Assembly: GCA_035712145.1 (NCBI GenBank)
Contig: DASTBI010000115.1
Coordinates: forward strand, 3,827-67,826
Length of the DNA stretch: 64,000 bases
Source of the DNA: Candidatus Eiseniibacteriota bacterium
Lineage (GTDB): Bacteria > Eisenbacteria > RBG-16-71-46
Reading direction: 5' to 3'
The notes under the pieces were generated by a model. That model saw only the letters and a program-made list of their open reading frames with translations, made no database searches and had not been told where the DNA came from. The translations under genes were made by a program, and so were the position numbers. Below are positions 1,924 to 62,207 of this stretch, in pieces; within the stretch, counting starts at the first letter, position 1; each line of letters opens with the position of its first letter.

Positions 1924-2583
1924 ATGCGATTTTTCGCCCTGTTGGTGGCAGTTCTGGTCCTTCCTGTCGTCTTTCCCAATTCAGCTCGTACCGCCAAGGC
2001 GGCGAGCGCGATCGTTCGGTGGCACGCCACCGGCGACGACAGTCTTGTCGGACGAGCGACGATGTACGACCTCCGCTACAGCACGTCGCCGATCACGGTG
2101 ACGAACTTTCCGTCTGCGAGCGGCGTGGGAGGGGTTCCGCCCCCCGCGCCGGCAGGCACCTACGAGAGTTTCATGGTCACCGGACTCCAGGCGGGAGTGA
2201 CGTACTACTTCGCCATCAAAGCCCGCGACGAGGCCGGCAACTGGTCCAAGATCTCCAACGTCGTGTCGAAGGTGGCCACGACGACACTCGATGCCGCCGA
2301 CCAGGTGGCGGTGTTGTCCTTCTCGCAGCCTCGGCCCAATCCGGCGCGGTCCGGCTCCTTGTTCGTGATGCAGCTACCCGCTGCGGCCAATGTGCTGGTC
2401 GAGGCGTTCGACGTCGCGGGCAGACGGGTTCGCACGTTGGCGGATCAGCAGTACGCAGCCGGCGAACATCCAGTCCGCTGGGATCTCTACGACCATCAAG
2501 GCAGGCGAGTGTCGCCCGGGATGTACAAGGTGCGCGCCCGTCTTGGCTCCACGACCTTTACCCGGAACGTGGTGATCATCTGA
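1924..2583 (+). CDS. secreted fibronectin-type-III-like protein with T9SS/FlgD-Ig-like C-terminal sorting domain
   Basis: Signal peptide MRFFALLVAVLVLPVVF. The FN3-like segment reads GVTYYFAIKARDEAGNWS. The C-terminus (...GEHPVRWDLYDHQGRRVSPGMYKVRARLGSTTFTRNVVII) is typical of a Por secretion tail / FlgD-Ig-like CTD. Confidence 0.7.
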   Translation: MRFFALLVAVLVLPVVFPNSARTAKAASAIVRWHATGDDSLVGRATMYDLRYSTSPITVTNFPSASGVGGVPPPAPAGTYESFMVTGLQAGVTYYFAIKARDEAGNWSKISNVVSKVATTTLDAADQVAVLSFSQPRPNPARSGSLFVMQLPAAANVLVEAFDVAGRRVRTLADQQYAAGEHPVRWDLYDHQGRRVSPGMYKVRARLGSTTFTRNVVII

Positions 2584-9490: not shown

Positions 9491-11086
9491 ATGCATCGCT
9501 TCGGAAACGCCGCAAGCCTTCGACAGGCTCCTTTGTTCGCCGCGCTTCTCTTGGGCTTGGCCGTCTGTGTCTCGAGCCCGCCGGCGAGCGCGGAGCCACC
9601 GCCGACGTTCGAGCTCGAATGGTCCACGACACCGTACGGCAGCGCGCTGTCCATTCCCACCGGCATCACCGTCGACAACGAGGGGAACGTGACGGTCAGC
9701 GAGCGCTCGCCACAACTCATCATGTCCTTCACCCCAACCGGGACGTTTCGGACAGCCTGGGAGGTGCCTGGGTCCGGCACCTGCTTCCCCCAGCCATTGG
9801 GACTGGATGTGGATGGAAGTGGGAACACCTGGATCACCGACTTCGCTTGTAGTCGTATCGCGAAGTTCGACCCGAATCATGCGTTCGTCGGAGCTCTCAC
9901 CGGTTTCTCTCGGCCCGGTGGAGTCGCGGTCGGGCCGGATGGCAGCGTGTACGTGGCGGACACCTTCAATCACCGGATCCGGAAGTTCATGAACGACGCA
10001 TTCGTCCTGGGCTGGGGAAGCATGGGATCCGACCCTGGGCAATTCAACACCCCCTGGGACGTCGCGACGGACGCTGCCGGCAACGTGTACGTGCTGGACT
10101 CCTTCAACCAGCGGGTCCAGGTGTTCAACAGCTCAGGGGTGCTGCTCAGGATGTTCGGCGAGGCCGGATTCGGGGTCGACCATCTCATCCAGCCGATGGG
10201 TCTGGCCGTGGATGCCACGTTGAATGTCTACGTCGCCGATACGGGAAACAATCAGATCGTGAAGTTCGGACCCACCGGCGAGCGGCTGGCGGTCTGGGGT
10301 GGCTATGGCTTCAGCCCCGGCCAGATGATCGCGCCCAACGACGTGACGGTCGACGCCGCCGGGCACGTGTACGTCGTGGACAGCGGCAACAGGAGGATCC
10401 AGAGGTTCGCGGCGCCGCTCGTCGCGGGTCTGCACGTCGAGCCGCGCACGCTCAACGTTCGATCCGGAGGCCGCTGGGTGACCGCTTACATCGAGCCGCC
10501 AGCGCCTTATCTCCCGGCGGACATCAGCATCGAGTCGCTGACCCTCAATGGCGTGTCGGTCGATGTGGCCGCCCCGGTCGGCACCGACGATCTCGACGGT
10601 GACGGCATCGCCGAGCTCGTCGTGCGCTTCTCGAGGGAAGCCCTCGTCGCCACCGCACCGGGGGGAGCCACGGAGATGACCCTGAGACTCGCGGGTACGG
10701 TGTCGGGGTCGAACTTCACCGGCGAGGACATCGTCAAAGTCGTGGGCAACGGCGACATCCTGACCTGGGACCCGGGATTGGGATCGGCGCAATCGATGCC
10801 GGGAGCAGGCTCGGAGAAGCTCGAGCTGCGGGCCATCATCCCCAACCCGGTACGTGCGGGCTCGTCCATGAGCGTGGCCTTCAGCGCTCGCGCCGACGCG
10901 CCCGCCGTGCTCGAGCTCATCGACCTGTCGGGCCGACGGGTGACGCGAGCCGAGCTGAGCACCGGAGGGCAAGGATGGAGGAGCGCCAAGGTCCCGCTCG
11001 AGCGCGCGCTTCCGTCGGGTCTCTATCTGGTACGGATCACCCAGCATTCACAGGTGGCCACGGCTAAGCTCGCAGTGATCGATTAG
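9491..11086 (+). CDS. NHL-repeat beta-propeller protein with T9SS C-terminal sorting domain
   Basis: ATG at 9491 gives MHRFGNAASLRQAPLFAALLLGLAVCVSSPPASA, a signal peptide. At least five NHL-type blades (YVADTFNHRIRKF, YVLDSFNQRVQVFN, YVADTGNNQIVKF, YVVDSGNRRIQRF). The C-terminal tail ...GLYLVRITQHSQVATAKLAVID is a T9SS/FlgD-Ig-like CTD. Confidence 0.75.
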   Translation: MHRFGNAASLRQAPLFAALLLGLAVCVSSPPASAEPPPTFELEWSTTPYGSALSIPTGITVDNEGNVTVSERSPQLIMSFTPTGTFRTAWEVPGSGTCFPQPLGLDVDGSGNTWITDFACSRIAKFDPNHAFVGALTGFSRPGGVAVGPDGSVYVADTFNHRIRKFMNDAFVLGWGSMGSDPGQFNTPWDVATDAAGNVYVLDSFNQRVQVFNSSGVLLRMFGEAGFGVDHLIQPMGLAVDATLNVYVADTGNNQIVKFGPTGERLAVWGGYGFSPGQMIAPNDVTVDAAGHVYVVDSGNRRIQRFAAPLVAGLHVEPRTLNVRSGGRWVTAYIEPPAPYLPADISIESLTLNGVSVDVAAPVGTDDLDGDGIAELVVRFSREALVATAPGGATEMTLRLAGTVSGSNFTGEDIVKVVGNGDILTWDPGLGSAQSMPGAGSEKLELRAIIPNPVRAGSSMSVAFSARADAPAVLELIDLSGRRVTRAELSTGGQGWRSAKVPLERALPSGLYLVRITQHSQVATAKLAVID

Positions 11087-22687: not shown

Positions 22688-24099
22688 GCGGCATCCGTCT
22701 CAACAAGCTGCTCGCGGGACGCGGGATCGGATCGCGGCGTGCCTGCGACACGCTGATCGAATCGGGCGTGGTGCGGGTGAACGGCGCCGTCGTCCGCGAG
22801 CCGGGGCGTCGCGTCGAGCCCGAGCGCGACCGGGTGATGGTGCGCGGCCGTCCGCTCCCCGGCAGGAGCGCATTGCGCTACTTCCTGATCCACAAGCCGG
22901 TGGGGATGATCACGACGCTCCACGATCCGGAAGGCCGCGCCACCGTGCGCGACCTGCTCCCGCCTGGTCCGAGGCTCTTTCCGGTGGGCCGGCTGGATGC
23001 GGACACGAGCGGGCTCTTGCTCGTCACCAACGACGGCGAGCTGGCGCACAAGCTCATGCACCCGCGCTACGGAGTGGAGAAGCGCTACCGCGTCCTGGTG
23101 GACGAAGTCCCCGACTCGGCTCAGCTGAGGCGCATGCGCGAAGGCGTGACGCTCGAGCCCGGCGTGCGCACCGGACCGGCCGACGTGCGGCTGGCGCGCT
23201 CCCAGCGCGAGCGGCCCATGGTCGACATCCGGATCCACGAAGGGCGCTACCGCCAGGTGCGGCGCATGTGCGAAGCCGTGGGACTCGGCGTCAAGGCGCT
23301 GCATCGCTATGGGTACGGCCCGCTGCAAATCGGCACCCTGCCGCGCGGCGCGTTGCGCCCGCTGTCCGAAGGGGAGGTGCGGAAGCTGAAGGCGATGGCC
23401 GCGCGGCCGGGCGGCGTGGCACCGCGTCGTTTCCACGGCCCGGCGCCAAGCGGCGAGCGGAGCCGTCCGCCGGTGCCAAAGCGGCCCCGTCGCGAGCGCA
23501 CCTTCGAACAGCCCCGTCGCGAGCACCCTTCCGCCCGGCCACGTGGGGGGCGCACCTCCGATCGGCCGCGTGGCGAGCGGACCTTCGATCGGCCACGGGC
23601 GGGGCGCACCTCCGCCCGGCCACGTCGTGAGCCCACCTTCGATCAGCCGCGTCGCGGGCGCACCTCTGATCGGCCACGTGGCGAGCGGACCTTCGAGCGG
23701 CCCCGTCGCGAGCGCACCTTCGATCGGCCACGTGGCGAGCGGACCTTCGATCAGCCGCGTCGCGGGCGCACCTCCGATCGGGCACGTGGCGAGCGGACCT
23801 TCGAGCAGCCGCGTCGCGGGCGCACCTCCGATCGGGCACGTGGCGAGCGGACCTTCGAGCAGCCGCGTCGCGGGCGCACCTCCGATCGGCCGCGTGGCGA
23901 GCGGACCTTCGAGCGACCACGCCGGGGGCGCACCTCCGATCGCCCGGGTGGCGGACGGACCTTCGATCGGCCACGTGGCGAGCGGCAACCTCGAAGCAAG
24001 CGCGGTCGCCCGATGGGTCAAAGAGCGGGACGCCCTGGGTCCGGGGGCTCACCAAGGCGCCCGGGGGGGCCTCGAAGGCCTCGGGCAGGCCGCGGGTGA
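22684..24099 (+). CDS. rluB: 23S rRNA pseudouridine synthase RluB/RsuA family (S4 domain + catalytic domain) with long Arg-rich repetitive C-terminal tail
   Basis: S4 domain IRLNKLLAGRGIGSRRACDTLIESGVVRVNG. Catalytic motif FPVGRLDADTSGLLLVTNDG. The conserved S4 segment lies upstream of the first ATG/GTG (track ORF begins at GTG 22768). A CTG at 22684 with an AGGA SD gives the canonical N-terminal length, hence the extended call. Confidence 0.75.
   Translation: MSGIRLNKLLAGRGIGSRRACDTLIESGVVRVNGAVVREPGRRVEPERDRVMVRGRPLPGRSALRYFLIHKPVGMITTLHDPEGRATVRDLLPPGPRLFPVGRLDADTSGLLLVTNDGELAHKLMHPRYGVEKRYRVLVDEVPDSAQLRRMREGVTLEPGVRTGPADVRLARSQRERPMVDIRIHEGRYRQVRRMCEAVGLGVKALHRYGYGPLQIGTLPRGALRPLSEGEVRKLKAMAARPGGVAPRRFHGPAPSGERSRPPVPKRPRRERTFEQPRREHPSARPRGGRTSDRPRGERTFDRPRAGRTSARPRREPTFDQPRRGRTSDRPRGERTFERPRRERTFDRPRGERTFDQPRRGRTSDRARGERTFEQPRRGRTSDRARGERTFEQPRRGRTSDRPRGERTFERPRRGRTSDRPGGGRTFDRPRGERQPRSKRGRPMGQRAGRPGSGGSPRRPGGPRRPRAGRG
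23470..24000 (+). repeat. in-frame tandem coding repeat (27/54-nt units) encoding RPRGERTFD/QPRRGRTSD repeats in the RluB tail
   Basis: About 18 imperfect copies of a 9-aa Arg-rich unit. The nucleotide-level periodicity generates the long antisense shadow ORFs seen in the track. Confidence 0.7.
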
Positions 24100-24120
24100 T
24101 GGCCGCCTAAAATATTGTAA

Positions 24121-24149
24121 TTGAAATGCTTCGAGGCCGTTCCTAGACT
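24121..24149 (+). promoter_or_regulatory. candidate sigma70-type promoter TTGAAA-N17-TAGACT
   Basis: AT-rich island (taaaatattgtaaTTGAAAtgcttcgaggccgttccTAGACTtattt) immediately after the rluB stop. It is the best consensus match in the window. Confidence 0.35.
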
Positions 24150-24398
24150 TATTTGCGAAGTCGCGCCCGATGCCTTTGCCGCGGAACGATTCGTGCGGCA
24201 GGAAGCTTCAAGGAAGGGCGTCGCTCGACCGGCAGGGATGTCGGACTCACCGTCACGTCATTCGAGGTCCAGCCTCTCTTGCAGCAATCTCCCGACTCGG
24301 TCTCTCCCGCACCTTCGAATCACACCCAGCCCGCAGAAGCTCCCGAGACGTTTGACGGGACATGCGAAGCCAGTACCGGGGTAGAAGCACACGACCCG

Positions 24399-24869
24399 GT
24401 GGCCAGGACCCAAGCTCGGCGCCGTCCGAAGCTTCGGCTCCTGGTCCTCCTCGGGCTCGGAGCCTTCAGTCTTCTCGGTCAAGGCGAAGAGTGTCGCGTG
24501 GATTCCCGCTTCGTTTCTCCCAGCGCGACGCTCGCCACCTTCTGGGAAGCGCTGAGGGTGGGGGACGCGGACGGGGTATGGGAGTGCTTCGTCGAAGGAC
24601 GCCACGATCTGCCGGTGCCCGGACAGCTCTGGTTCCTTCCTCCGACGGACCGCATCACCCTCGCCGAGTTCCGATCCCTGCCCGTCACGGGAGGGCGCAT
24701 GCTCGTGAGCTACGAGGTGCGCTACGTCCCGCGCGGGCTCGATCAGGAGAGAAGCTTCCGGACGGGGGATGAGCTGGTGCGGCTGCGTGGACAGTGGCGC
24801 ATCGCACGCCCACTCGGGCAGGCCAGTATGCCCGAGTGGGAGCCGACCCCTCGGCCGTTTGACATCTGA
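24399..24869 (+). CDS. hypothetical secreted protein (start uncertain)
   Basis: A GTG at 24399 gives MARTQARRRPKLRLLVLLGLGAFSLLGQG, a signal peptide. The upstream 82 codons of track ORF 24153..24869 are low-complexity. That leaves a ~250-nt leader after the predicted promoter. Confidence 0.35.
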   Translation: MARTQARRRPKLRLLVLLGLGAFSLLGQGEECRVDSRFVSPSATLATFWEALRVGDADGVWECFVEGRHDLPVPGQLWFLPPTDRITLAEFRSLPVTGGRMLVSYEVRYVPRGLDQERSFRTGDELVRLRGQWRIARPLGQASMPEWEPTPRPFDI

Positions 24870-24928
24870 ATCGGCGCGGGCCTAGGCTCGCTGGCCCCAT
24901 TTCATCTGGCCGTTCGAGGCTCCCGCAC

Positions 24929-26047
24929 ATGCGACGACGCGCTCTCTGCGCGATCCTTTCGGCGCTTTCCATGGCAGCCATGGCAGCGTCGGCCCATGCG
25001 ACCAAGTACGCGGGCGAGTTCCTGAAGGTCCCGGTCGGAGCGCGCGCGATCGGCATGGGGAGCGCCTTCGTCGCGGTCGCCGACGACGCGACGGCGCCTT
25101 TCTGGAATCCCGCCGGGCTGATCTACCTGCCGTACCGGGAAGTGCTCCCGATGCACTCCGAGCAGTTCGGCAGCCTGATCAATCATGACTACCTGGGCGC
25201 GGTCTTTCCCCTGGGCGGCGAGAAGGGCAAGCAGCAAGCCCTCGGCGTGGGCCTGATTCGGCTCGCGGTGGACGACATTCCGGTCACGCCTCGCCCCGGA
25301 GGTCTGCGGCCCAATATCGACTTCTGGGACTACGGCACGGACAACGACCAGGGCACCATCGACCCCAACGGGACGCAGGGGAACGGCGTGTGGGATCCGG
25401 GCGAGCGGCTGCTCGACATCGAGCTCTACGAGGCGAGCAGCAGCGACCTCGCGCTGCTCCTCTCGTACGCCCGCCATCGCGGGCCTCACTGGGCGTTCGG
25501 AGGCACCTTCAAGTTCGTGCGTCAGAGCATCCCCGATACGCTTCCGGGCGACCACGTCACCTCGTTCGGGATGGGCATCGACGCGGGGGCGGTGTACATG
25601 CCGTCCGACGCGATCACGATCGGGATCCTGGCCCGCGACCTCACCACCACGTACTTGTCCTGGAGCAACGGCACTCGCGAGCTGGTGGTGCCGACCATCG
25701 ACATGGGCTCGGCCTTCCACTTCTTTCCGGCCGACCGCCATTCGCTGACGTGGGCCGTCGACCTGGCGTGGGGCTTCGAGAACCGGACGCTCGACAGCCA
25801 GATCGAGCTGGGACCGGTCACGGCGGATCTTCGCACCGGAGTCGAGTACTGGTATCGCAACACGCTCGCCCTGCGCTCGGGAGTGAGCGGCAAGGATCTC
25901 GCCTTCGGCGCGGGCGTGCGCTACAAGCACATCGGCGTCGACTACGCCGCCCAGCTCCACCGTTTCCTCGCGGGGAACACCGAAGGCTTCCCGAGCGATC
26001 AGGATCTCGATCCGACTCACCTCGTCTCGGCTTCGTTTTCCTGGTAA
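24929..26047 (+). CDS. PorV/PorQ-family outer-membrane beta-barrel protein (T9SS-associated)
   Basis: Signal peptide followed by the family-typical N-terminal motif KYAGEFLKVPVGARAIGMGSAFVAVADDATAPFWNPAGL. Size ~370 aa. C-terminal aromatic-rich beta-strands ending ...HLVSASFSW. Confidence 0.6.
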   Translation: MRRRALCAILSALSMAAMAASAHATKYAGEFLKVPVGARAIGMGSAFVAVADDATAPFWNPAGLIYLPYREVLPMHSEQFGSLINHDYLGAVFPLGGEKGKQQALGVGLIRLAVDDIPVTPRPGGLRPNIDFWDYGTDNDQGTIDPNGTQGNGVWDPGERLLDIELYEASSSDLALLLSYARHRGPHWAFGGTFKFVRQSIPDTLPGDHVTSFGMGIDAGAVYMPSDAITIGILARDLTTTYLSWSNGTRELVVPTIDMGSAFHFFPADRHSLTWAVDLAWGFENRTLDSQIELGPVTADLRTGVEYWYRNTLALRSGVSGKDLAFGAGVRYKHIGVDYAAQLHRFLAGNTEGFPSDQDLDPTHLVSASFSW

Positions 26048-26182
26048 CGGTTGTTCTGTTCTTGACTCGGACGCCTGGCTAGGCGTCTGATGGCCGAACC
26101 CAGGGAGCGCGGGGACCGGCCGCCCCTCCTCGAACCCCGTGCGCCTTCCTCGTTCCCCAGGGTGTTCTGACCACACTGTCTC

Positions 26183-29125
26183 GTGACCCGACCGGGTTTC
26201 GGGAGCGATCCATTGAAAATAGAACCCCGCCGAGCGTGGGGCCGAGTGGCGCTGCTGGGGCTTCTGGCAGCGTCGCCGGCTCATGGTGGCCGTTTGGATC
26301 CCGCCGATGAAGCAGCAACCCGGAGTCTGGCTGAGTACTGGCAGCATCGCCCAGCGAACAGCGGAGGGATGAAAGGCCGCACCGCAGCTCCGGCGGCACT
26401 TCCCGACGTCTTCGGCCCCGGCGCCGTCCTCACGGTTGGAAACGTGGTGATGAAGGTGACCAACTTCGGCACCATCGGGAACGCATTCGTGACGTCGAGT
26501 GATCCATCAGGACAGTGGCCTGGGGCTTCGGGAGTCGAGTATCTCTTCGCGATGTTCCTGGGCGTGGGCGGCGTGAACCCCAACGCGACCGATCCGACCG
26601 CGATGCGGCGGATGAGCTACATCCCCGAGTGGAATCCCCCGACTCCCGATCCCGAGGACAGGATGTACCGCGCCTATGACGGGATCATCAGCGGGAACCG
26701 GCTGGTGAACGATGACGGGGACTTCAATCCATTCACCGGCGAGCCGAGCATCGACGAGGACTTCCTCGACGGCCGTGACAACGACGGCGACAGCCGCATC
26801 GATGAGGACTATGGCGCGCTGGGTCAGCAGATGTTCTCGTGCGTGATGCGCGACGACACGCCGGCGGCCTTTGCGGCGAGCACGGCCGAAGCCCACGTGC
26901 CGCTGGTGACCGAAGTGCGGCAGCTGGCCTGGGCCTACTCGGTGCCCGGGTTCATGGATTTCAACGTCATCCAGTGGGACGTCTACAACCGCTCCGGCCA
27001 TAGCCTCGACAGTCTCTACTTCGGAGGCCTGGTCGACATGGATGCCGGGCCAACGCCCATCTCGACCTACTTCTCGGACGATCGTGACATTCCCTATTTC
27101 CCGAGCGGCGAGTTCAGGCGGACGGTGGGGCCGGATGATCCGCGCTTCCAGAGTGTGACGCTTCCCGGCGGAGCCAGGGACACTCTCTGTCCGGTGCAGG
27201 CGATTCGCATCAACGGCTTCTCGCTGGTCGACGACAACGGCGACGAGGGACGAACCCCGGGCGTGGTCTCGCTTCTGCTCTTCGGGCACACCCTCGATCC
27301 GCTCGGTATCCGCGCGCCGGCCCGGGTCGGATTCCGCGCGTTCCGCTCGTACGTTCAGGGGACGCCGTATCTGAGCAACGGCGGCCCCACCATCGACCAG
27401 CAGCGTTTCGAATTCCTCTCGAGCCGCCAGAACATCGATCCAGCCACGGGTTTCCTCAGCGCCCCGCCAGGCGATCAGCCCGGCGACTATCGGGCGTGGT
27501 TCTCGGTCGGTCCTTTCCTCGATATTCCCGATGGCGGCATGTTCAGCGCCACCCTCGGAATCGCCGTGAATCGCGGCAGGTTCGTGGACCTCCAGGATTA
27601 TCCGCTCGACTATGCGAGCTACCAGGCGGGCTTGAAGTCGGAGTCCGATCTGTTCGAGAAGTACCCCTCTCTCGAGACCGCCTTCACCGCGCAGATCGCC
27701 TACGAAGGCGTCTATGAGCCGCCGCTGCCGGGCTTCGAGGCGCAGGTCCCCGACTGTCACGGTTGCGAGACCGGGGTCAAGCTCCCGGCGGGCTCGACCC
27801 CCACGGTCATCACCGAGGTCTGCCCCGATCGCGAGGCGGTGTCCAAGCAGGTCACGGACAATGCCTATACCTGGTTCGACCTCGACTGCGATCCCTGCAC
27901 CGGCGCGTGGAACGAGGCCAGCGGACAGGGTTATTACCTGCGGCACTGGAACGCCGAATCGCCTCCACCCAGTCCGAACCTGAACGTCGCGGCATCCCAC
28001 AACTACTCGGACAATCCCGACCGTGTGCGGCCGGCGGGGGACAATCAGGTGACGCTGGCGTGGGACAACGTTGCCGAGACCACAGCAGACCCGAAGGTGA
28101 AGAAGTTCGACTTCCGTTCCTACCGGATCTGGAAGGTGGCGGGCTGGCGGCGTCCGGTCGGCGCCGCGGGTCCCAACGACGAGGATTGGGCCTTGCTGGC
28201 GGAGTATCGCCTGTTCGACTACGCCGACAGCAACTCGACCCGCGATCCGAACGCGGACACGCTGGTCTGCCCGATGGTCTTCGTGCCCAGCCACGACTAT
28301 CCGCCGGGGCATCCGCACTGCAGCGATCCTCTCGCGGATCCGCTCGAGCTTCGGGGTGGCGGCTGCCGGGACACGGCGACCGTGAAGATCTGCCTCCGCA
28401 ACGGTGACTTCTGGGATCGTCAGACCGGGGTGATCCTGCGCCCCGAAGCGGTCGACTGTGTCCGCGGACCCGGAGGAGAGTGCCTGCAGGACAGCGGATG
28501 GGCGCTGGAGGTTCAGGACATCTCCAGGGTTCCTCCGATCAAGAAGTCACGATATCCGGTGGGACGCTACCTCTATCTGGACCGCGAGGTGAAGAACGGC
28601 TTCGTCTACTTCTATTCGGTGACGGCCGGAGACTCGTCGTCAGGCGGTGAGCTCTACGGGCGCCGAACCGCCGTGGAGGCGGACCAGGTGGCCCCCCAGG
28701 GCTCGACCAAGTCCGGAAAGTCGGTATGGGTGGTGCCCAATCCGTATCGCGGATTCACGAGCATCGACGCCCGTCCCTCGGCCTGGGACCTGACACCCAA
28801 CGCGACCGATCCCACCGGAACGCACATCGACTTCATGGGCCTGCCACAGGGCAAATGGAGGATCCGCATCTACACCGTGTCCGGGGATCTGGTCGCGGAG
28901 CTCCACGAGGACGACGCGGTCAACCCTTCGATTCGAAACCCGGTCACGGGGCCGGACAACGTGACCCGTCCCGGGTACAACCGCCAGCAGGACTCGCCGG
29001 ATGACGGCCAGGCTCGATGGGACCTGATCTCGCGGAATGGACAGGACGTGGTGAGCGGCATCTACGTTTTCGTGGTCGACTCCAACGAAGGCGTGCAGCG
29101 AGGAAGGTTCGTCGTGATCCGTTAG
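26183..29125 (+). CDS. large (980 aa) secreted protein of unknown function with T9SS C-terminal sorting domain
   Basis: Signal peptide (RVALLGLLAASPAHG). Asp-rich Ca-binding-like repeats (NDDGDFNPFTGEPSIDEDFLDGRDNDGDSRIDED). C-terminal ~80 aa ...WRIRIYTVSGDLVAEL...VSGIYVFVVDSNEGVQRGRFVVIR is a Por_Secre-tail-type CTD. The start may instead be TTG 26213. Confidence 0.7.
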   Translation: MTRPGFGSDPLKIEPRRAWGRVALLGLLAASPAHGGRLDPADEAATRSLAEYWQHRPANSGGMKGRTAAPAALPDVFGPGAVLTVGNVVMKVTNFGTIGNAFVTSSDPSGQWPGASGVEYLFAMFLGVGGVNPNATDPTAMRRMSYIPEWNPPTPDPEDRMYRAYDGIISGNRLVNDDGDFNPFTGEPSIDEDFLDGRDNDGDSRIDEDYGALGQQMFSCVMRDDTPAAFAASTAEAHVPLVTEVRQLAWAYSVPGFMDFNVIQWDVYNRSGHSLDSLYFGGLVDMDAGPTPISTYFSDDRDIPYFPSGEFRRTVGPDDPRFQSVTLPGGARDTLCPVQAIRINGFSLVDDNGDEGRTPGVVSLLLFGHTLDPLGIRAPARVGFRAFRSYVQGTPYLSNGGPTIDQQRFEFLSSRQNIDPATGFLSAPPGDQPGDYRAWFSVGPFLDIPDGGMFSATLGIAVNRGRFVDLQDYPLDYASYQAGLKSESDLFEKYPSLETAFTAQIAYEGVYEPPLPGFEAQVPDCHGCETGVKLPAGSTPTVITEVCPDREAVSKQVTDNAYTWFDLDCDPCTGAWNEASGQGYYLRHWNAESPPPSPNLNVAASHNYSDNPDRVRPAGDNQVTLAWDNVAETTADPKVKKFDFRSYRIWKVAGWRRPVGAAGPNDEDWALLAEYRLFDYADSNSTRDPNADTLVCPMVFVPSHDYPPGHPHCSDPLADPLELRGGGCRDTATVKICLRNGDFWDRQTGVILRPEAVDCVRGPGGECLQDSGWALEVQDISRVPPIKKSRYPVGRYLYLDREVKNGFVYFYSVTAGDSSSGGELYGRRTAVEADQVAPQGSTKSGKSVWVVPNPYRGFTSIDARPSAWDLTPNATDPTGTHIDFMGLPQGKWRIRIYTVSGDLVAELHEDDAVNPSIRNPVTGPDNVTRPGYNRQQDSPDDGQARWDLISRNGQDVVSGIYVFVVDSNEGVQRGRFVVIR

Positions 29126-29206
29126 TGCGCGATGTTCTTGCCGTCGCGCCTCGGGTTCCTCTAGCTTCCCCCGACCGCCGGTTCGGAAGGCGGTCGGGAG
29201 GGATCT

Positions 29207-30448
29207 GTGCAAGACACGATGGCGCTCGTACTGGCGGGAGGCCGAGGCGCTTCCCTGAGCGTTCTGTCGGCAGAGCGCGCGGAGAGCGCGCTTCCCTTCG
29301 GCGGCAAGTACCGGGTCGTCGACTTCGTCCTCAGCAACTGCTGTCACTCCGGGATCGTTCGCGTCGGCGTGCTCACCCAGCACGCGCCGACGTCGCTGCA
29401 CGACCACATCGGGTCCGGCCGTCCGTGGGATCTCGACCGGCGTGATGCCCGCGTCTTCATCCTCCAGCCATTCCTCACCCGCGAGAGCTCCGGCTGGTAT
29501 CGCGGCACCGCCGACGCGCTGGCCCAGAACCGGGACCTGATCGAGGAGAGCCGGGTGCGCCGCGTGCTCGTGCTTCCGGGCGACCACGTGTACAAGATGG
29601 ATTACCGCGAGCTGGCGCGCACCCACGAGGAGCGCGGCGCCCGCGTCACGCTCGCGGTGACGCCGGTGCGGGCCGAGGAGACGCGGCGCTTCGGCATGGT
29701 GACCGTGGCCGACGGCGACCGCGTCGTGGCGCTCGACGAGAAGCCGCCCGCCACGTCGTCGCGCCTTGCCTCGATGGGTGTCGTGTTGTTCGAGGCCGAC
29801 GTATTGCTGGAGGCGCTGGACAGGAAGCCGGTCGACCTGACGCTCGACATGCTGCGTCCGATGATCGAGTCCGGCGAGCGCGTTTTTGCCCATCACTTCC
29901 GCGGCTACTGGGAGGACGTGGGAACGCTCGCCACCTATTACCGCGCCAATCTCGATCTGCTCGCTCCCGAGCCCGGTCTGACGCTCGACGATCCGGAGTG
30001 GCCGATCCTCACCCGCGACGAGGAGCGCCCGCCGGTGCTCGTCCTGCCCGGCGCCGAGCTGGAGGGGAGCCTGGTGGCGAACGGCTGCCGCGTGGCGGGC
30101 TGCGTGCGTCATTCGATCCTGTTCCCGGGCGTCACCGTCGAAGCGGGCGCGGAAGTCACCGCGTCGGTGGTGCTTCCCGACGCCTGGATCGGACCGGGTG
30201 CGCGGCTCGACCGCACGATCCTCGACAAACATTCGTGGATCGGCGAAGGGGCGCGCGTGGGTCTGGGCGTCGCCACGGGGCACGCGCCGCTCACGCTGCT
30301 CGGCAAATACGTCCACGTTCCCGAAGGCGCGGAGGTGGGTCGTGGAGCGGTGCTCGGCGTCGGCGCCGGCCCGCAGGATTTCCGCGACCGGAAGATCGAG
30401 CCCGGCACGCGCGTGCCCGATCGTCAGGGGCTGGAGGTGCGGCCGTGA
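29207..30448 (+). CDS. glgD: glucose-1-phosphate adenylyltransferase paralog, probably regulatory/non-catalytic (GlgD-like)
   Basis: ADP-glucose pyrophosphorylase fold (LAGGRG...FGGKYRVVDF...GDHVYKMDY, left-handed beta-helix C-domain). Catalytic signatures are degenerate: GASLSV instead of GTRL, RAESALPF instead of RAKPAVPF. Confidence 0.75.
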   Translation: MQDTMALVLAGGRGASLSVLSAERAESALPFGGKYRVVDFVLSNCCHSGIVRVGVLTQHAPTSLHDHIGSGRPWDLDRRDARVFILQPFLTRESSGWYRGTADALAQNRDLIEESRVRRVLVLPGDHVYKMDYRELARTHEERGARVTLAVTPVRAEETRRFGMVTVADGDRVVALDEKPPATSSRLASMGVVLFEADVLLEALDRKPVDLTLDMLRPMIESGERVFAHHFRGYWEDVGTLATYYRANLDLLAPEPGLTLDDPEWPILTRDEERPPVLVLPGAELEGSLVANGCRVAGCVRHSILFPGVTVEAGAEVTASVVLPDAWIGPGARLDRTILDKHSWIGEGARVGLGVATGHAPLTLLGKYVHVPEGAEVGRGAVLGVGAGPQDFRDRKIEPGTRVPDRQGLEVRP

Positions 30449-31722
30449 GCGCTCAGCGCTACGCGTTCATCCTCGCCGGCGGCCTGGGAACGCGGCTCTG
30501 CCTGTTGTCGGAGCAGCGCGCGAAGCCGGCGGTGCCGTTCGCGGGCAAGTACCGCATCATCGATTTCACGCTCTCCAACTGTGTCAACTCGGGCATCTTC
30601 GACGTCGGGGTGCTGACGCAGTACCGGCCCACATCCCTGCACCGGCACATCGGCATCGGACGACCGTGGGACCTGGACCGGACGCGCGGAGGCGTGCAGC
30701 TCCTCCAGCCGTCGCTCGGCGCCGTGTCGGGCGAGTGGTATCAAGGCACCGCGGACGCGATCTATCGCAACCTGATCCACATGCGGCGGCGCAACGCCGA
30801 GGAGCTGCTCGTGCTCTCCGGCGACCACGTGTACAAGATGGACTACGGCGTGCTCTACGCCTTCCATCGCGCCAATCATGCGGCGGCCACGGTGGCGGTG
30901 ACCGAGGTCCCCGCCGACTCGGTGGGCGCCTTCGGCATCGTGGAGGCGGACGCCACGGGCCGCGTCACCGGATTCCTCGAAAAGCCCAAGCAGGCGCGCT
31001 CGAGACTGGCTTCGATGGGCATCTACCTGTTCGAGCGTGAAGCGTTGATCCGCTGGCTGGTGGAAGACGCGGGAATGCCGGAGTCGAGCCATGATTTCGG
31101 GAAGGATCTGCTGCCGCGGCTGGTGGAGCGCGGCGAGCGGCTATTCGCGTATCGGTTCCGCGACTACTGGCAGGACGTCGGCACGCTGGATTCCTACTAT
31201 CAGAGCAATCTCGCTCTGCTCTCGGCGGAGCCGCCGCTCGAGCTGCGCGACGCCGAATGGGTGGTGCACACACAGAGCGCGGACCGGGCGCCGGTGCGCT
31301 TTCAGGCGGGCAGCCGCGTCGAGCAGAGCCTGATCTGCAACGGCTGTCGCGTGGCCGGCGAAGTGGTGCACTCGGTGCTCTCGCCAGGCGTCACGGTGAT
31401 GCCGGGGGCCGTGGTGCGCGACAGCATCGTGATGAACGACACCGTCGTGGGCCGAGGCGCGGTGCTCGATCGCGCCGTGGTCGACAAGAACGTGAGGGTC
31501 GGCGATGGCGCGCGGATTGGTCACGGCTCCGCCGACGTGCCGAACCAGGCTTGCCCGGAGCACCTCTCTCAGGGGCTGGTGGTGGTGGGCAAGGACGCTC
31601 AGCTGCCCGCGGAGGTGTCGATCGGCCGGAACGCGCGGATCGGGGCGCACGTCCGGCTCGAGGCGTTCACGGGAGACGTGCCCAGCGGAGGTGTGGTGCA
31701 CGGCCCCGCGGCCGAGCACTAG
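30445..31722 (+). CDS. glgC: glucose-1-phosphate adenylyltransferase (catalytic subunit)
   Basis: Intact motifs [49 protein letters not shown]. The GTG start with GGAGGTG SD overlaps the upstream paralog's stop (GTGA). Confidence 0.85.
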
Positions 31723-56006: not shown

Positions 56007-56797
56007 TCCCGATCGTGGTGGTCGGGGCCGCCGGCCGCATGGGCCGCGCGGTCGTTGAAACCGCGATGGCCGATCCGGGGTTCAACGTGAAAGCTGGCGT
56101 CGACCGGGCGCCATGCCCCAAGGACTGGGATCGAAAGCTCCCCTTTGTCGACGATGCCGGGAAGGTGCTGGCGCGAGGAGATGTGGTGGTGGAATTCGCG
56201 GGTCCCGAGGGCGCGGTCGATGCCGCTCGGGCGGCCGCTCGAAGCGGCGCGGCACTGGTCTCGGGCGGCACCGGGCTCTCGGGCCCTCAGGAGCAGGCGC
56301 TTCGAGCGGCCGCCGATTCGATCGCCATCTTGCGCAGCGCCAACTTCAGTCTGGGGATTCTGGCCCTTCGGCAGGCCTTGAAGGCCGTGCTTTCCGCAAT
56401 TCCGGCCTGGGACATCGAGATCGTGGAGAAGCATCATCGCAACAAGCAGGACAGTCCCTCCGGGACCGCGCTCACGCTCGCTCGAGACGCCGCGAGCGCG
56501 CGCGGTTATCCGGCCTCCTCTTTGCGTCATGGCCGTGATGGACACGTCGGCGTGAGGCCGGTCGAGGAAATCGGAGTGCATGCGGTTCGGGGGGGATCGT
56601 GGGTTGGAGAGCACACCGTCATGCTCGCGGGACCTGGAGAGTCCCTCGAGCTCCGTCACGTGGCCCAGGACCGGGTGGCATTCGCGCGCGGAGCCCTCAC
56701 CGCAGCGGAATTCCTGGCGCATGCTCAGCCAGGGCTCTACACTTTCGAGGACGTTTTGAGAGCAGCCGCACGGTCGGAAGGAGGTCGGCTCACGTAG
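56003..56797 (+). CDS. dapB: 4-hydroxy-tetrahydrodipicolinate reductase
   Basis: N-terminal Rossmann fold IVVVGAAGRMGRAV. The catalytic region reads EIVEKHHRNKQDSPSGTA. Confidence 0.85.
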   Translation: MIPIVVVGAAGRMGRAVVETAMADPGFNVKAGVDRAPCPKDWDRKLPFVDDAGKVLARGDVVVEFAGPEGAVDAARAAARSGAALVSGGTGLSGPQEQALRAAADSIAILRSANFSLGILALRQALKAVLSAIPAWDIEIVEKHHRNKQDSPSGTALTLARDAASARGYPASSLRHGRDGHVGVRPVEEIGVHAVRGGSWVGEHTVMLAGPGESLELRHVAQDRVAFARGALTAAEFLAHAQPGLYTFEDVLRAAARSEGGRLT

Positions 56798-56799
56798 TA

Positions 56800-59660: not shown

Positions 59661-62207
59661 GTGGAGGCATTCGGGCTAAAGGGCCAGTGCCTCCGCGCCT
59701 CGGTGATCTTCCTCGTCCTGGGACTGGCCTGGTCGCCGGCGGCTTTCTCGCGCGACGCCGAGATCGACCAGCAGGTCCGGACGCTCAAGGCCATCCAGCA
59801 GGAGATGACCCTCGGCGGCGCCGGGCGAAAGATCGAAGCGATGCGCGCGCTGGCGAGCCAGCGGCGCGCCCGGAAGCTCAAAGGTCAGCGCAGCCGTCCT
59901 CCTCGTGACCATCAGGAGGCCCTCGGCGCCCAGGGCACGTACGGTCCTGCGGTGGGCCTGCGCTCTCGAACCGCGGAGCAGCCGGCGAATCGATTGATCA
60001 CCACGTCGGCGCAGCCCTTCACCACGCAATCCGAGGTTTCGGTGGCGGGAACGCGGGCCGCCATGGTGGCGGCGTGGAACGACGCGGGGTCCCATCAGAA
60101 CCAGTTCAATGCCATCAGCTTCGCCACCTCCACGGATGGCGGACAGGTGTGGCGCGAGGGCGGGCCGTTACCGGTGGGCGGCCAGGTGCTGGTGTGGGTC
60201 TCCGACCCCGTGGTGGCGGTGGACGCGCGACGAGGCGATTTCTACGTCGCGGGGCTGGTGATCGCGACGGGCGCCTCCAGCGGCGTGGCCGTGGCGCGTG
60301 GACGCTTCGGTGAGAGCGGTTTTCAGTGGGAGGCGCCACGGGTGGCCCGGGCCGTCCGGGACTCGTTCCCTGACAAGCCGTGGATGGTGGCGGACTCGCT
60401 CACCGGAAACCTCTATCTCAGCTACACCACCTTCTACCGTCGCGACGGAAAGTCCACCGACCGGATCGAGTTCCAGCGCTCCGAGGATGGAGGACTGACC
60501 TGGAGCTCCGTGGCGAGGCTCTCGCCGGAAAGCGAGGAAGGCCTGGTCCAGGGATCGCGCCCGGCGGTGGGTCCCTTGGGCGAGCTGCACGTGGTGTGGA
60601 AGACGATCGACACCACCGCCGCCGCCGGAGGCGAGGACGCCATGCGGATCCGCAGCTCCTGGGACGGCGGGCGCACGTTTTCGGAGACCGCCACGGTCGC
60701 GCGGCTCTACACGAACTTCTGCAGCGGTCCGCCGGGGTTCGACCGCGGGTTCGGCCTGGGATTCCCGTCGATCGCCGTCGATCGCAGCGCCGGACCGCAT
60801 CGCGGTCGAATCCACGTCGGTTGGGAAGAATCCCTCAATTTCTACGACGACCGCCTGGCCGCGGCCGGCGGGGTGCAGGAAGAAGCCGAGCCCAACAACC
60901 GGCACCGCGACGCCACGCCGTTCACCGTCGGCGACGTGCTGCGCGGCACGATCAGTCCGGCGCATGACGTCGACTGGTTCCGCTTCCACGGCGAGGCGGG
61001 ACGCACCGTGGTGCTCTACGTCGACTCGCTGGATGCACATCTCGACGTGGCGCTCCGGCTGTGGTGCGGGGACGGAAGCACCCGGCTCGCGTACAGCACG
61101 TCGCTCAACGTCCGCCAGCGGATCGTGCTCTTCACGGTGACGACTCCGGGCGATTATTACGTCTCGATCGCGCCGCACGATGATTCGACCGGCGTCTATC
61201 GCCTGGCGTCGGGATGGGCCGAGCGCGGCTCCGAGCGCGGGCGAGACCAGCGCGACATCTTCGTCGCCCACTCGGACGATGGAATCACGTGGAGCACGCC
61301 CGCGCTCGCGGGAGACGCGCCGGCGGGATTCGACGACTGGCTTCCGGAACTGGCGGTAGGCACCAACGGAACGCCTTACGTGGCGTGGTACGACTTCCGG
61401 GAGGGCGATCCCTCCGGTTGCGGCGCCGCCTCGCACATCCGCCTGTCGCGCTCCGACGACGGTGGCGACCACTGGGTCCCGGTCGGACTCGTCACCGACT
61501 ACCCCACGCTGTGGTCTGGAGTCTTCAGCAATCAGTCGCCCAACATGGGGGACTACATCGGCCTGCTCGCCGGCCAGGATGGCATCGTGCCGGCGTGGGC
61601 GGATGGCCGGGACGCGAATCCCGATGTGTACGCCGCCTTCTGGCCGACGGCTGAAGCGGCGCGCGACATCGCGCCTCTGGCCAGCGAGCCTTCATCGGGC
61701 GGCGTGGTCCTGCGCTGGCAGGCGCCGCCGATTCCCGTGACCGGCACGGTGTGGCGACGCGTGTCGGGTGGAAGCGCTCGGGCGCTGGCCGATATCGACC
61801 CTGATCCCCAGGGTGTGATGAGCTATCTCGACGTCGACCTCGATCCCGGATTTCGCTACCACTACGAGCTCGCGGTGCGCTCCAGCGAAGGCGAGGTCCG
61901 CGTCGGCCAGCAGTCGATCGATGCGCCGGGCGCTTCGGCGGCGGCGCTCGCCCTCGAGCGTGTGGCGCCGAACCCGAGCCATGGCGTGTTCCGGATCGCG
62001 TTCAGTCGTCCGCATCTTGCGCCCGCTCGGCTCGACGTGCTCGACGTAGGCGGCCGCCGCGTGATGGGCGTGGATCTCGGCGAGGAGTATGGCACTCGCG
62101 GCGTCCTCGACCTGGGACGACAGACGCGGCTCGATCCTGGTCTCTACCTGGTGCGGTTCGTCCAGGCCGGAGAGTCGGTCAGCGTGAAGGCTGTCGTGGT
62201 CCGGTAG
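59661..62207 (+). CDS. BNR/sialidase-like repeat secreted protein with T9SS C-terminal sorting domain
   Basis: A GTG at 59661 gives a signal peptide. BNR-type S-x-D-x-G-x-T-W motifs (STDGGQVW, SEDGGLTWS, SWDGGRTF, SDDGITWS, SDDGGDHW). C-terminal tail ...LDPGLYLVRFVQAGESVSVKAVVVR. Confidence 0.7.
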   Translation: MEAFGLKGQCLRASVIFLVLGLAWSPAAFSRDAEIDQQVRTLKAIQQEMTLGGAGRKIEAMRALASQRRARKLKGQRSRPPRDHQEALGAQGTYGPAVGLRSRTAEQPANRLITTSAQPFTTQSEVSVAGTRAAMVAAWNDAGSHQNQFNAISFATSTDGGQVWREGGPLPVGGQVLVWVSDPVVAVDARRGDFYVAGLVIATGASSGVAVARGRFGESGFQWEAPRVARAVRDSFPDKPWMVADSLTGNLYLSYTTFYRRDGKSTDRIEFQRSEDGGLTWSSVARLSPESEEGLVQGSRPAVGPLGELHVVWKTIDTTAAAGGEDAMRIRSSWDGGRTFSETATVARLYTNFCSGPPGFDRGFGLGFPSIAVDRSAGPHRGRIHVGWEESLNFYDDRLAAAGGVQEEAEPNNRHRDATPFTVGDVLRGTISPAHDVDWFRFHGEAGRTVVLYVDSLDAHLDVALRLWCGDGSTRLAYSTSLNVRQRIVLFTVTTPGDYYVSIAPHDDSTGVYRLASGWAERGSERGRDQRDIFVAHSDDGITWSTPALAGDAPAGFDDWLPELAVGTNGTPYVAWYDFREGDPSGCGAASHIRLSRSDDGGDHWVPVGLVTDYPTLWSGVFSNQSPNMGDYIGLLAGQDGIVPAWADGRDANPDVYAAFWPTAEAARDIAPLASEPSSGGVVLRWQAPPIPVTGTVWRRVSGGSARALADIDPDPQGVMSYLDVDLDPGFRYHYELAVRSSEGEVRVGQQSIDAPGASAAALALERVAPNPSHGVFRIAFSRPHLAPARLDVLDVGGRRVMGVDLGEEYGTRGVLDLGRQTRLDPGLYLVRFVQAGESVSVKAVVVR

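What the first reader, a model, noticed from the sequence alone, without database searches (positions are those of the whole stretch)
24929..29125. T9SS module: PorV-like outer-membrane protein followed by a 980-aa uncharacterised cargo; four more CTD-bearing proteins in the window
The 372-aa protein has the PorV/PorQ N-terminal signature (EFLKVPVGARAIGMGSAFVAVADDATAPFWNPAGL). The downstream 980-aa protein ends in a Por-secretion-tail-like domain and contains Asp-rich Ca-binding-like repeats but no recognisable catalytic domain. Other CTD proteins in the window are the FN3 protein (1924..2583), the NHL protein (9491..11086) and the BNR protein (59661..62207). A dedicated PorV paralog next to a single large cargo suggests a cargo-specific shuttle pair. 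The cargo's function is unknown.
Basis: partly seen in the sequence, partly recalled or inferred. Interest (0 to 1): 0.5.

Follow-up and report, generated by a model that had tools for sequence, protein, structure and literature searches.

The report
PorV-like barrel beside conserved surface protein
In this uncultured Eisenbacteria genome, a PorV-type outer-membrane barrel sits beside a large sugar-binding-type surface protein with a type-IX secretion tail, but that protein is a phylum-wide conserved component that normally sits in a five-gene outer-membrane operon and was only recently moved next to this barrel.

The parts
24929..26047 (+). PorV/PorQ-family (FadL-like) outer-membrane beta-barrel, the 'PorV2-like' paralogue, 372 aa. 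It has a signal peptide, the N-terminal PorV signature at residues 29-66, and an insertion of about 55 residues (residues ~100-165) relative to PorV317.
   Evidence: NCBIfam PorV_fam 98.9 bits (cutoff 90). The best hit is PorVQ2 NF052325 at 163 bits (cutoff 325, not met). hhalign against PorV317 gives probability 99%, E 2.5e-18. PDB sequence hit 6h3i_F. Foldseek top hits are the PorV chains. Orthologues are 66-91% identical.
26183..29125 (+). Large secreted CTD-bearing protein ('BIG'). The ORF is 980 aa, and the probable start is TTG 26213 (970 aa).
   Evidence: 489 word-index homologues. 2358 cluster representatives at E<=1e-3 and 247 at E<=1e-30.
26213..26287 (+). Probable Sec signal peptide (M/L)KIEPRRAWGRVALLGLLAASPAHG. 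There is no lipobox cysteine.
   Evidence: Read from the sequence; aligns with the orthologue N-termini. The cleavage site is inferred.
26405..27580 (+). N-terminal galactose-mutarotase-like beta-supersandwich domain (residues ~75-466).
26702..26818 (+). Two invariant Asp-rich, Ca-binding-type loops (NDDGDFNPFTGEPSIDED / DGRDNDGDSRIDEDY) inserted in the supersandwich.
   Evidence: Invariant D177 D178 D191 E192 D196 G197 D199 D201 D203 D207 E208 D209 in 55 sequences. Low pLDDT in the model. Metal binding is inferred, not shown.
27713..28717 (+). Middle region (residues ~511-845): a Cys-containing segment (invariant C547, C569, C572, C759) and FN3-like beta domains. It is the least conserved part.
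   Evidence: FN3 matches; majority fraction 0.58-0.62.
28718..29122 (+). Divergent T9SS type-A C-terminal domain (residues 846-980). It is a 7-strand sandwich with an invariant insert WDLTPNAxDPTGTH and a variable loop, and it ends in GRFVVIR.
   Evidence: 30 of 31 family C-termini hit TIGR04183, and 31 of 31 hit the PorZ CTD. 9 of 31 hit Pfam Por_Secre_tail. Strand pattern. It is the most conserved domain, majority fraction 0.80.
24153..24869 (+). Small conserved hypothetical protein (the real start is probably internal, about 150-215 aa) that precedes PorV2 in every PorV2 locus examined.
   Evidence: Synteny in L006-L009. No family hit.
1924..2583 (+). FN3 protein with a FlgD_ig / type-A CTD-like C-terminus (another CTD-bearing protein in the window).
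   Evidence: FlgD_ig 35.4 bits (cutoff 27). TIGR04183 22.5 bits (cutoff 23).
9491..11086 (+). NHL-repeat protein with a bona fide type-A CTD.
   Evidence: TIGR04183 33.9 bits (cutoff 23).
59661..62207 (+). BNR/PPC protein with a sub-threshold CTD-like C-terminus.
   Evidence: TIGR04183 16.9 bits, PF18962 17.2 bits, both at the extreme C-terminus.

Best explanation
What is shown. The 372-aa gene encodes one of two PorV/PorQ-family barrels found in Eisenbacteria loci. The 970/980-aa gene encodes a Sec-exported protein with no recognisable catalytic domain. It consists of a carbohydrate-binding-type beta-supersandwich carrying two Asp-rich loops, a less conserved FN3-like stalk, and a divergent type-A T9SS C-terminal domain. 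It belongs to an undescribed family that is found across the phylum. The ancestral home of that family is a five-gene outer-membrane operon: hyp540, then a TonB-dependent-receptor-like barrel, then this protein, then PorV317, then a GWxTD protein. In the window's lineage the gene alone was relocated to the slot downstream of the other paralogue, PorV2.

What is inferred about the mechanism. The protein crosses the outer membrane by the CTD route. Its CTD is kept rather than cleaved, as in the T9SS components PorA, PorU and PorZ. The protein then stays on the cell surface, docked through this highly conserved CTD onto a PorV-family barrel, normally PorV317 and possibly also PorV2. There it acts as the extracellular ligand-binding (probably glycan-binding) partner of the TonB-receptor-like barrel. 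This is analogous to a SusD or surface-glycan-binding protein, but held by a PorV-type barrel instead of a lipid anchor.
For: Identity of the parts: PorV family; fold; CTD.

Operon. PorV317 lies immediately downstream in 55 of 58 assessable species-representative loci. The TBDR-like barrel lies immediately upstream in 48 of 51. The same operon surrounds a very divergent member on a closed 4.58 Mb genome.

Core-like conservation. TBDR is 71% and PorV317 75% identical, compared with GAPDH 75%, PGK 71% and PrfB 72%. The large protein is 52% identical, as expected for an exposed partner.

Retained-CTD inference. The CTD is the best-conserved domain (0.80, against 0.71 and about 0.6). It contains an invariant insert that is kept even in paralogues of 35-42% identity. 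All 31 C-termini match the CTD of PorZ. PorA, PorU and PorZ are known to keep their CTDs (PMC11285876).

Pairing with the TonB-type barrel. Extra paralogue pairs of TBDR plus the large protein occur in L064 and L090.

Link to PorV barrels in general. After relocation the gene again lies beside a PorV paralogue, possibly through two independent events: L006 groups with L003, while the window clade groups with L005.
Against: CTD retention is inferred from conservation only.

In the window's lineage the gene is separated from the TBDR-like barrel, which argues against an obligate TBDR partnership, or at least against a need for co-transcription.

Solitary paralogues lack PorV or TBDR neighbours: 8 of 13 divergent loci have no PorV317 downstream.

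The slot next to PorV2 holds transposase fragments in another genome, so relocation there may reflect a recombination hot spot rather than selection.

The supersandwich fold also occurs in enzymes (mutarotases, polysaccharide lyases), so a catalytic role is not excluded.

T9SS core genes in Eisenbacteria were not demonstrated. The roles of GWxTD and hyp540 are unknown.
Confidence: 0.4

Rival explanations
1. PorV2 is a dedicated, cargo-specific shuttle for the large protein, which is an ordinary T9SS cargo of unknown function.
For: The two genes are adjacent on the same strand in the window, L009, L010 and L006. The tree suggests the gene may have been brought next to PorV2 twice. PorV2 carries a lineage-specific loop insertion that could give specificity.
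Against: PorV2 is near the large gene in 0 of 80 species-representative loci. PorV2 keeps its syntenic slot and its 66-91% conservation whether or not the gene is beside it. The intergenic gap is 135-320 bp, against about 30 bp for the gap to PorV317. The usual neighbour is PorV317. Transposase fragments at the same slot in L008 suggest a neutral insertion hot spot. The CTD is too conserved for a disposable signal.
Confidence: 0.12
2. The protein is a PorZ-like (or other) structural component of a T9SS attachment complex. In this model it is a CTD-retaining, polysaccharide- or LPS-binding subunit that sits on a PorQ/PorV-type barrel and presents the glycan anchor to a sortase. The operon would then be secretion machinery rather than an uptake system.
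For: All 31 CTDs match the PorZ CTD, and 3 match the PorU CTD. The fold is of carbohydrate-binding type. The gene order of large protein then PorV mirrors porU then porV of Bacteroidota (my own knowledge). The barrels are conserved at housekeeping level. There are two PorV-family paralogues per genome, as with PorV plus PorQ.
Against: There are no beta-propellers and no similarity to PorZ outside the CTD: 15-33 bits against a cutoff of 260. There is no gingipain- or caspase-like fold and no PorU HMM hit for the window protein. A TonB-receptor-like barrel and a GWxTD protein are not known T9SS parts. Paralogues duplicate together with the TBDR (L064, L090). No sortase candidate was identified.
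Confidence: 0.2
3. BAM-canopy analogy. The FadL-type barrel(s) and the large surface protein form an extracellular structure associated with outer-membrane protein biogenesis, like BamG-BamH(-BamM) of Bacteroidota. In that complex a FadL-family barrel anchors a surface protein with a carbohydrate-binding fold and a Ca-rich partner.
For: The precedent is in PMC12611786 and PMC12578637. Those papers also describe a paralogous bamG2-bamH2 operon. The barrels here are conserved at housekeeping level. A BamG-like barrel gene lies next to the operon in L093 (58.7 bits). The large protein has Asp-rich Ca-type loops and a carbohydrate-binding-type fold.
Against: PorV2 and PorV317 do not hit the BamG model even at E<=10 and clearly fall in PorV_fam. 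The large protein is not a lipoprotein and carries a CTD. The operon is not at a bamA locus in any locus seen. The BamG hit in L093 is far below its cutoff of 250.
Confidence: 0.08

Closest known systems
PorU-PorV and PorZ-PorQ pairs of the Porphyromonas gingivalis T9SS attachment complex
   Same: A PorV/PorQ-family 14-strand barrel is paired with a large secreted protein whose type-A CTD is not removed (PMC11285876). The gene order of large protein then PorV matches porU then porV. The CTD of the Eisenbacteria protein best matches the PorZ CTD.
   Different: There is no C25 peptidase fold (PorU) and no beta-propellers (PorZ). The body is a mutarotase-like supersandwich. The protein is embedded in an operon with a TonB-receptor-like barrel and a GWxTD protein. 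The barrels fail the PorV and PorQ equivalog cutoffs.
PorV as substrate shuttle on the SprA translocon (Flavobacterium johnsoniae; PDB 6h3i, 8gl6)
   Same: The N-terminal signature and the overall barrel resemble PorV. CTD-bearing proteins are encoded in the same genome region.
   Different: The score on the PorV equivalog model is 39.5 bits against a cutoff of 250. No SprA or motor genes were seen or could be searched. PorV is a general carrier, not one encoded beside a single client.
BamG-BamH(-BamM) extracellular canopy of the Bacteroidota BAM complex
   Same: A FadL-family barrel serves as a platform for a surface protein with a carbohydrate-binding fold. It involves Ca-binding acidic regions, is core-conserved, and has paralogous barrel-plus-partner operons.
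   Different: The partner here has a CTD instead of a lipid anchor. The barrels are PorV-type, not BamG-type. There is no link to bamA.
TonB-dependent transporter plus surface-exposed binding partner (SusC/SusD; P. gingivalis IhtA with surface-exposed IhtB)
   Same: The gene for a 22-strand TonB-type barrel with an N-terminal CarboxypepD_reg domain is followed immediately by the gene for a surface protein. The pairs duplicate together. The IhtA/IhtB arrangement is described in PMC12094164.
   Different: The partner is not SusD-like and not a lipoprotein. Additional PorV-type barrel and GWxTD genes are invariably present. Conservation is far higher than for typical substrate-specific loci.
N-terminal beta-supersandwich domains of GH15, GH65, GH94 and GH116 enzymes, and aldose 1-epimerases
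   Different: There is no (alpha/alpha)6 catalytic domain. Sequence identity is 5-12%. The domain carries an Asp-rich insert.

Membership tests
PorV/PorQ family (NCBIfam NF033709, subfamily model) - 372-aa protein | Score at or above the curated cutoff of 90 bits | tested here: met
   98.9 bits, E 4e-28
PorV/PorQ family - 372-aa protein | Conserved N-terminal signature shared with structurally characterised PorV | tested here: met
   Profile hit to 6h3i_F, residues 29-66 aligned to 30-67, E 0.021, the only PDB hit. hhalign to PorV317 over the full length, probability 99%.
PorV/PorQ family - 372-aa protein | FadL-type 14-strand barrel fold | tested here: inconclusive
   The AF2 model has pLDDT 49.7 and about 13-14 strands. 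The top Foldseek hits are PorV 8gl6_F (E 8e-7) and 6h3i_F, then FadL/TodX, but the model is of low confidence.
T9SS PorV proper (NF033710 equivalog) | Score of at least 250 bits | tested here: not met
   39.5 bits
T9SS PorQ (NF033711 equivalog) | Score of at least 220 bits | tested here: not met
   51.7 bits
'PorV2' (NF052325 equivalog) | Score of at least 325 bits | tested here: not met
   163.2 bits. This is the best-scoring model, but at half the cutoff.
BamG (NF053685) | Any significant HMM match | tested here: not met
   No hit for PorV2 or PorV317 at E<=10
T9SS type-A sorting domain (TIGR04183 / PF18962) - large protein | HMM score of at least 23 bits (TIGR04183) for the window copy | tested here: not met
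   11.7 bits in the full-length protein. 18.7 bits, E 0.0013, on the isolated domain. No Pfam hit.
T9SS type-A sorting domain - large-protein family | Homology of the family's C-terminal domain to the CTD model | tested here: met
   30 of 31 members at E<=0.01, best 3e-7. The orthologue in L093 scores 24.6 bits, above the cutoff.
T9SS type-A sorting domain - large protein | Located at the extreme C-terminus, forming a 7-strand Ig-like sandwich | tested here: met
   Strands 849-851, 881-885, 892-898, 903-908, 943-947, 959-967 and 970-978 in the AF2 model
T9SS (system level) | Core genes (SprA/Sov, PorK/L/M/N or GldK/L/M/N, PorU) in the same genome | not testable with these tools
   None lies in the 64-kb window. 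No SprA-sized ORF lies in the 1.54 Mb of fetched Eisenbacteria loci. No whole-genome access and no query sequence were available. No literature exists.
PorZ (NF052228 equivalog) | Full-length match of at least 260 bits; two beta-propeller domains | tested here: not met
   Only the CTD matches, at 15-33 bits. The body is a supersandwich, not a propeller.
PorU sortase (NF033707; C25 gingipain-like peptidase) | HMM match and a caspase/gingipain-like catalytic fold | tested here: not met
Galactose-mutarotase-like supersandwich superfamily | Fold match to solved members | tested here: met

The most novel reading that the evidence does not exclude
The five-gene operon (hyp540, TonB-receptor-like barrel, CTD-bearing supersandwich protein, PorV317, GWxTD), together with PorV2, encodes a previously undescribed core outer-membrane machine of Eisenbacteria. 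In it a 22-strand TonB-type barrel and PorV-type barrels cooperate with a CTD-retaining surface subunit. One possibility is a SprA-independent route for exporting or anchoring CTD proteins. Another is an outer-membrane biogenesis device parallel to the Bacteroidota BAM canopy. Either would differ from a nutrient-uptake locus.
Probability: 0.15. Interest if true: 0.8.

Novelty: new variant of a known kind. Interest (0 to 1): 0.45.

Why it matters
PorV-type barrels and CTD signals have been studied experimentally almost only in Bacteroidota. Here an uncultured soil phylum keeps two PorV paralogues and a CTD-bearing protein of a family with no Pfam or NCBIfam model. These sit in an operon with a TonB-type barrel, and the barrels are conserved as strongly as glycolytic enzymes.

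If the CTD is a permanent docking module, that would extend the known set of FadL-like barrels that act as platforms for surface proteins. The known examples are PorV/PorQ and BamG. It would also suggest a way to tether a partner of a TonB-dependent transporter without a lipid anchor. For annotation, it shows that a PorV gene next to a CTD protein need not mean a shuttle-and-cargo pair, and it defines a new protein family and operon for Eisenbacteria genomes.

Tried and rejected
(1) PorU-analogue hypothesis, prompted by the large-protein-then-PorV gene order. Rejected: there is no PorU HMM hit and no peptidase fold.

(2) BamG identity for the barrels. Rejected by HMM.

(3) hyp540 as a third PorV-like barrel. 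Only weak hints: hhalign E 0.0017 at probability 15%, and a PorV_fam C-terminal hit at E 0.005. Left open.

(4) Sequence searches of PDB with profiles of the large protein, GWxTD and hyp540 found nothing meaningful.

(5) The promoter/terminator scan of 24000-29400 was uninformative.

(6) Looking for the window MAG's own PorV317 and operon remnant. No VFQ05-tagged hit appeared, and the best candidate, P0242, turned out to be a standard operon.

(8) The PorV2 structure came out at low confidence.

(9) An apparent fusion of the large protein with PorV317 in L038 is a small deletion or assembly error. It removes the last CTD strand and the stop codon, so it is not used as evidence.

(10) Literature searches for PorV2, GWxTD and Eisenbacteria plus T9SS found nothing relevant.

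(11) A search for SprA-sized ORFs in the fetched loci found none, but the regions covered are limited.

(12) Taxonomy of distant relatives through cluster names: the only named one was again Eisenbacteria.

Full report
THE OBSERVATION

The window is high-GC DNA (64-74%) from a Candidatus Eisenbacteria MAG. The large protein is 100% identical to NCBI VFQ05_06925. ORFs 24929-26047 (372 aa) and 26183-29125 (980 aa) are present on the + strand with coding-type GC3.

The 372-aa protein contains the quoted N-terminal string. It scores 98.9 bits on the NCBIfam PorV/PorQ subfamily model (cutoff 90). Its best hit is the 'PorV2' equivalog at 163 bits, which is half the cutoff of 325. The PorV and PorQ equivalogs are far from met. 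Its only PDB sequence hit is F. johnsoniae PorV. A low-confidence AF2 model (pLDDT 49.7) still retrieves the two PorV chains first, followed by FadL, TodX and TbuX. It does not hit the BamG model.

The 980-aa protein has no Pfam family. The likely start is TTG 26213, which has a GGGAG Shine-Dalgarno 7 nt upstream and aligns with the orthologue starts. This gives a signal peptide without a lipobox.

ANATOMY OF THE LARGE PROTEIN

An AF2 model built from 55 homologues has pLDDT 80.6 and pTM 0.73. Its parts are:
- Two invariant Asp-rich loops inserted at residues 177-210.
- A helical hairpin, a Cys-containing segment and FN3-like domains.
- A seven-strand C-terminal sandwich (residues 849-978).

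No gingipain- or caspase-like fold appears. I therefore rejected the PorU-analogue idea that I had entertained because of the gene order.

IS THE TAIL A CTD?

The window copy alone fails the HMM cutoffs: 11.7 bits in the full-length protein and 18.7 bits on the isolated domain, against 23. Across 31 orthologues and paralogues, 30 hit TIGR04183 at E<=0.01 (best 3e-7). All 31 hit the C-terminal domain of PorZ (best 8.5e-7), and three hit the PorU tail. A very divergent orthologue passes the curated cutoff at 24.6 bits. So the tail is a genuine but divergent type-A CTD.

It is the most conserved domain of the protein, with a majority fraction of 0.80 against 0.71 for the N-domain and about 0.6 for the middle. 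It carries an invariant insert, WDLTPNAxDPTGTH, that is kept even in paralogues of 35-42% identity. PorA, PorU and PorZ are known to keep their CTDs after secretion (PMC11285876). The conservation pattern here fits such a retained, functional CTD better than a disposable signal. This step is an inference.

GENOMIC CONTEXT

The protein has 489 word-index homologues, and the top 120 are over 50% identical at full length. An exhaustive profile search finds 2358 cluster representatives at E<=1e-3 and 247 at E<=1e-30. A scan of GTDB species representatives finds 346 loci. Every named record among the best 80 is Eisenbacteria, apart from one labelled Limnocylindria.

In 55 of 58 assessable main-type loci a 317-aa PorV/PorQ-family gene (PorV_fam about 200 bits) follows at a median gap of 32 bp. 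In 48 of 51 a TonB-dependent-receptor-like gene (CarboxypepD_reg plus Plug plus barrel) precedes it. The full operon is hyp540, TBDR, large protein, PorV317, GWxTD. It usually lies between prfB/pgm and pfk/gap-pgk-tpi-secG. A member so divergent that only its N-domain aligns sits in the same operon on a closed 4.58 Mb genome.

Measured against L003, the TBDR (71%) and PorV317 (75%) are as conserved as GAPDH (75%), PGK (71%), PrfB (72%) and PGM (73%). The large protein (52%), GWxTD (51%) and hyp540 (41%) evolve faster.

THE WINDOW'S ARRANGEMENT IS DERIVED

PorV2 occupies a fixed slot: trpS, scpA, scpB, rluB, small hypothetical, PorV2, glgC, glgC, mltD, PEGA, comEC. In genome GCA_040961615.1 that slot holds PorV2 followed by transposase fragments, while the large gene of that genome lies in the standard operon on another contig.

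The window, L009 and L010 have the order PorV2, large gene, glgC. L006 has PorV2, large gene, PorV317, GWxTD. None of the 80 species-representative loci has PorV2 nearby.

A neighbour-joining tree nests the window clade among standard-arrangement sequences and places L006 beside L003. Relocation next to PorV2 may therefore have happened twice. That could mean selection for linkage with a PorV barrel. It could equally mean an insertion hot spot, which the transposase remnants suggest.

The other operon genes are not in the window. I could not find them for this MAG. PorV2 and PorV317 are clear full-length homologues (hhalign probability 99%, E 2.5e-18), and PorV2 has an extra loop of about 55 residues.

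PARALOGUES

Some MAGs carry two or three copies of the large gene. Two extra copies are paired with TBDR paralogues (L064, L090). Others are solitary, in varied contexts.

INTERPRETATION

Shown: a PorV-family barrel; a CTD-bearing protein with a supersandwich fold and no recognisable catalytic domain, belonging to an undescribed family found across the phylum; its usual home in a five-gene outer-membrane operon; and a lineage-specific relocation.

Inferred (confidence about 0.4): the protein is exported by the CTD route, keeps its CTD, docks on a PorV-type barrel, and serves as the surface ligand-binding partner of the TonB-type barrel. Precedents are PorU-PorV and PorZ-PorQ, BamG-BamH (PMC12611786, PMC12578637), and TonB-type receptors with surface partners such as SusCD or IhtA/IhtB (PMC12094164).

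Rivals:
- A PorZ-like attachment-complex subunit (0.2).
- A BAM-canopy-like device (0.08).
The remaining probability is unassigned.

LIMITS

The presence of T9SS core genes in Eisenbacteria is untested. None lies in the window, and no SprA-sized ORF lies in the 1.54 Mb of fetched loci. I had no whole-genome access and no query sequence, and no literature exists. No protein-protein interaction was modelled. GWxTD and hyp540 could not be submitted for structure prediction.

VERDICT

The finding is a new variant of a known kind and is of moderate interest.

Noticed in passing
window 23482-23984 (inside ORF 22768-24099): A 54-bp tandem repeat, 9.3 copies at 85% matches, encodes an Arg/Pro/Gly-rich 18-aa repeat (RPRGERTFDRPRRGRTSD-like). 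It forms the C-terminal tail of an RluB-type pseudouridine synthase.
   Followed up: partly
window 24153-24869; L006 6110-6832; L008 9297-9941; L009 8776-9243: A small hypothetical protein with no family hit always lies immediately upstream of PorV2, between rluB and PorV2. It may be a functional partner of PorV2.
   Followed up: partly
L008 11170-12364 (GCA_040961615.1, contig JBFONE010000014.1): Transposase (Transposase_mut) fragments occupy exactly the slot between PorV2 and glgC where the window has the large gene. This suggests a recombination or insertion hot spot.
   Followed up: partly
L001-L005, L011-L060 and others (for example L003 3199-13460): A phylum-wide five-gene operon: hyp540, TonB-receptor-like barrel, large CTD protein, PorV317, GWxTD. 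Its barrels are conserved like glycolytic enzymes. The GWxTD and hyp540 proteins have no known function and no PDB relatives by sequence.
   Followed up: yes
L003 3199-4815 and orthologues (alignment A4): hyp540 ends in an aromatic residue, like an outer-membrane barrel. Its N-terminal motif (RLLGMGRLTLxVDDxHNxxxLWDFAGNPxG) echoes the PorV signature. The statistical support is weak (hhalign E 0.0017 at probability 15%; PorV_fam C-terminal hit at E 0.005).
   Followed up: partly
L093 4077-5453: An extra gene just upstream of the operon in a closed 4.58 Mb genome weakly matches the BamG family (58.7 bits, cutoff 250) and carries a PorV-like N-terminal motif.
   Followed up: no
L038 13340-13360: The large gene lacks its last CTD strand and its stop codon, and reads in frame into the signal peptide of PorV317 (a 1454-aa open frame). 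This is probably a small deletion or an assembly error in that MAG, not a true fusion.
   Followed up: yes
L064 8923-14383; L090 7037-12757: Second-copy pairs of a TBDR paralogue (54-57% identity) and a large-protein paralogue (42-53%) occur without PorV317 or GWxTD. The order is inverted in L064.
   Followed up: partly
window 56599-59646 and 59661-62207: A 1015-aa protein combines a Peptidase_MA-like region, PD40/TolB-type propeller repeats and a weak Omp85-like C-terminal barrel. It is followed 15 bp later by the BNR/PPC protein with a CTD-like tail.
   Followed up: no
window 14890-16857 (-) and 29207-31722 (+): A PilB/T2SS-E-type ATPase with a MshEN domain and C-terminal double zinc ribbons, and two tandem glucose-1-phosphate adenylyltransferase (glgC-like) paralogues directly downstream of the large gene. 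Both are syntenic in L008 and L009.
   Followed up: no
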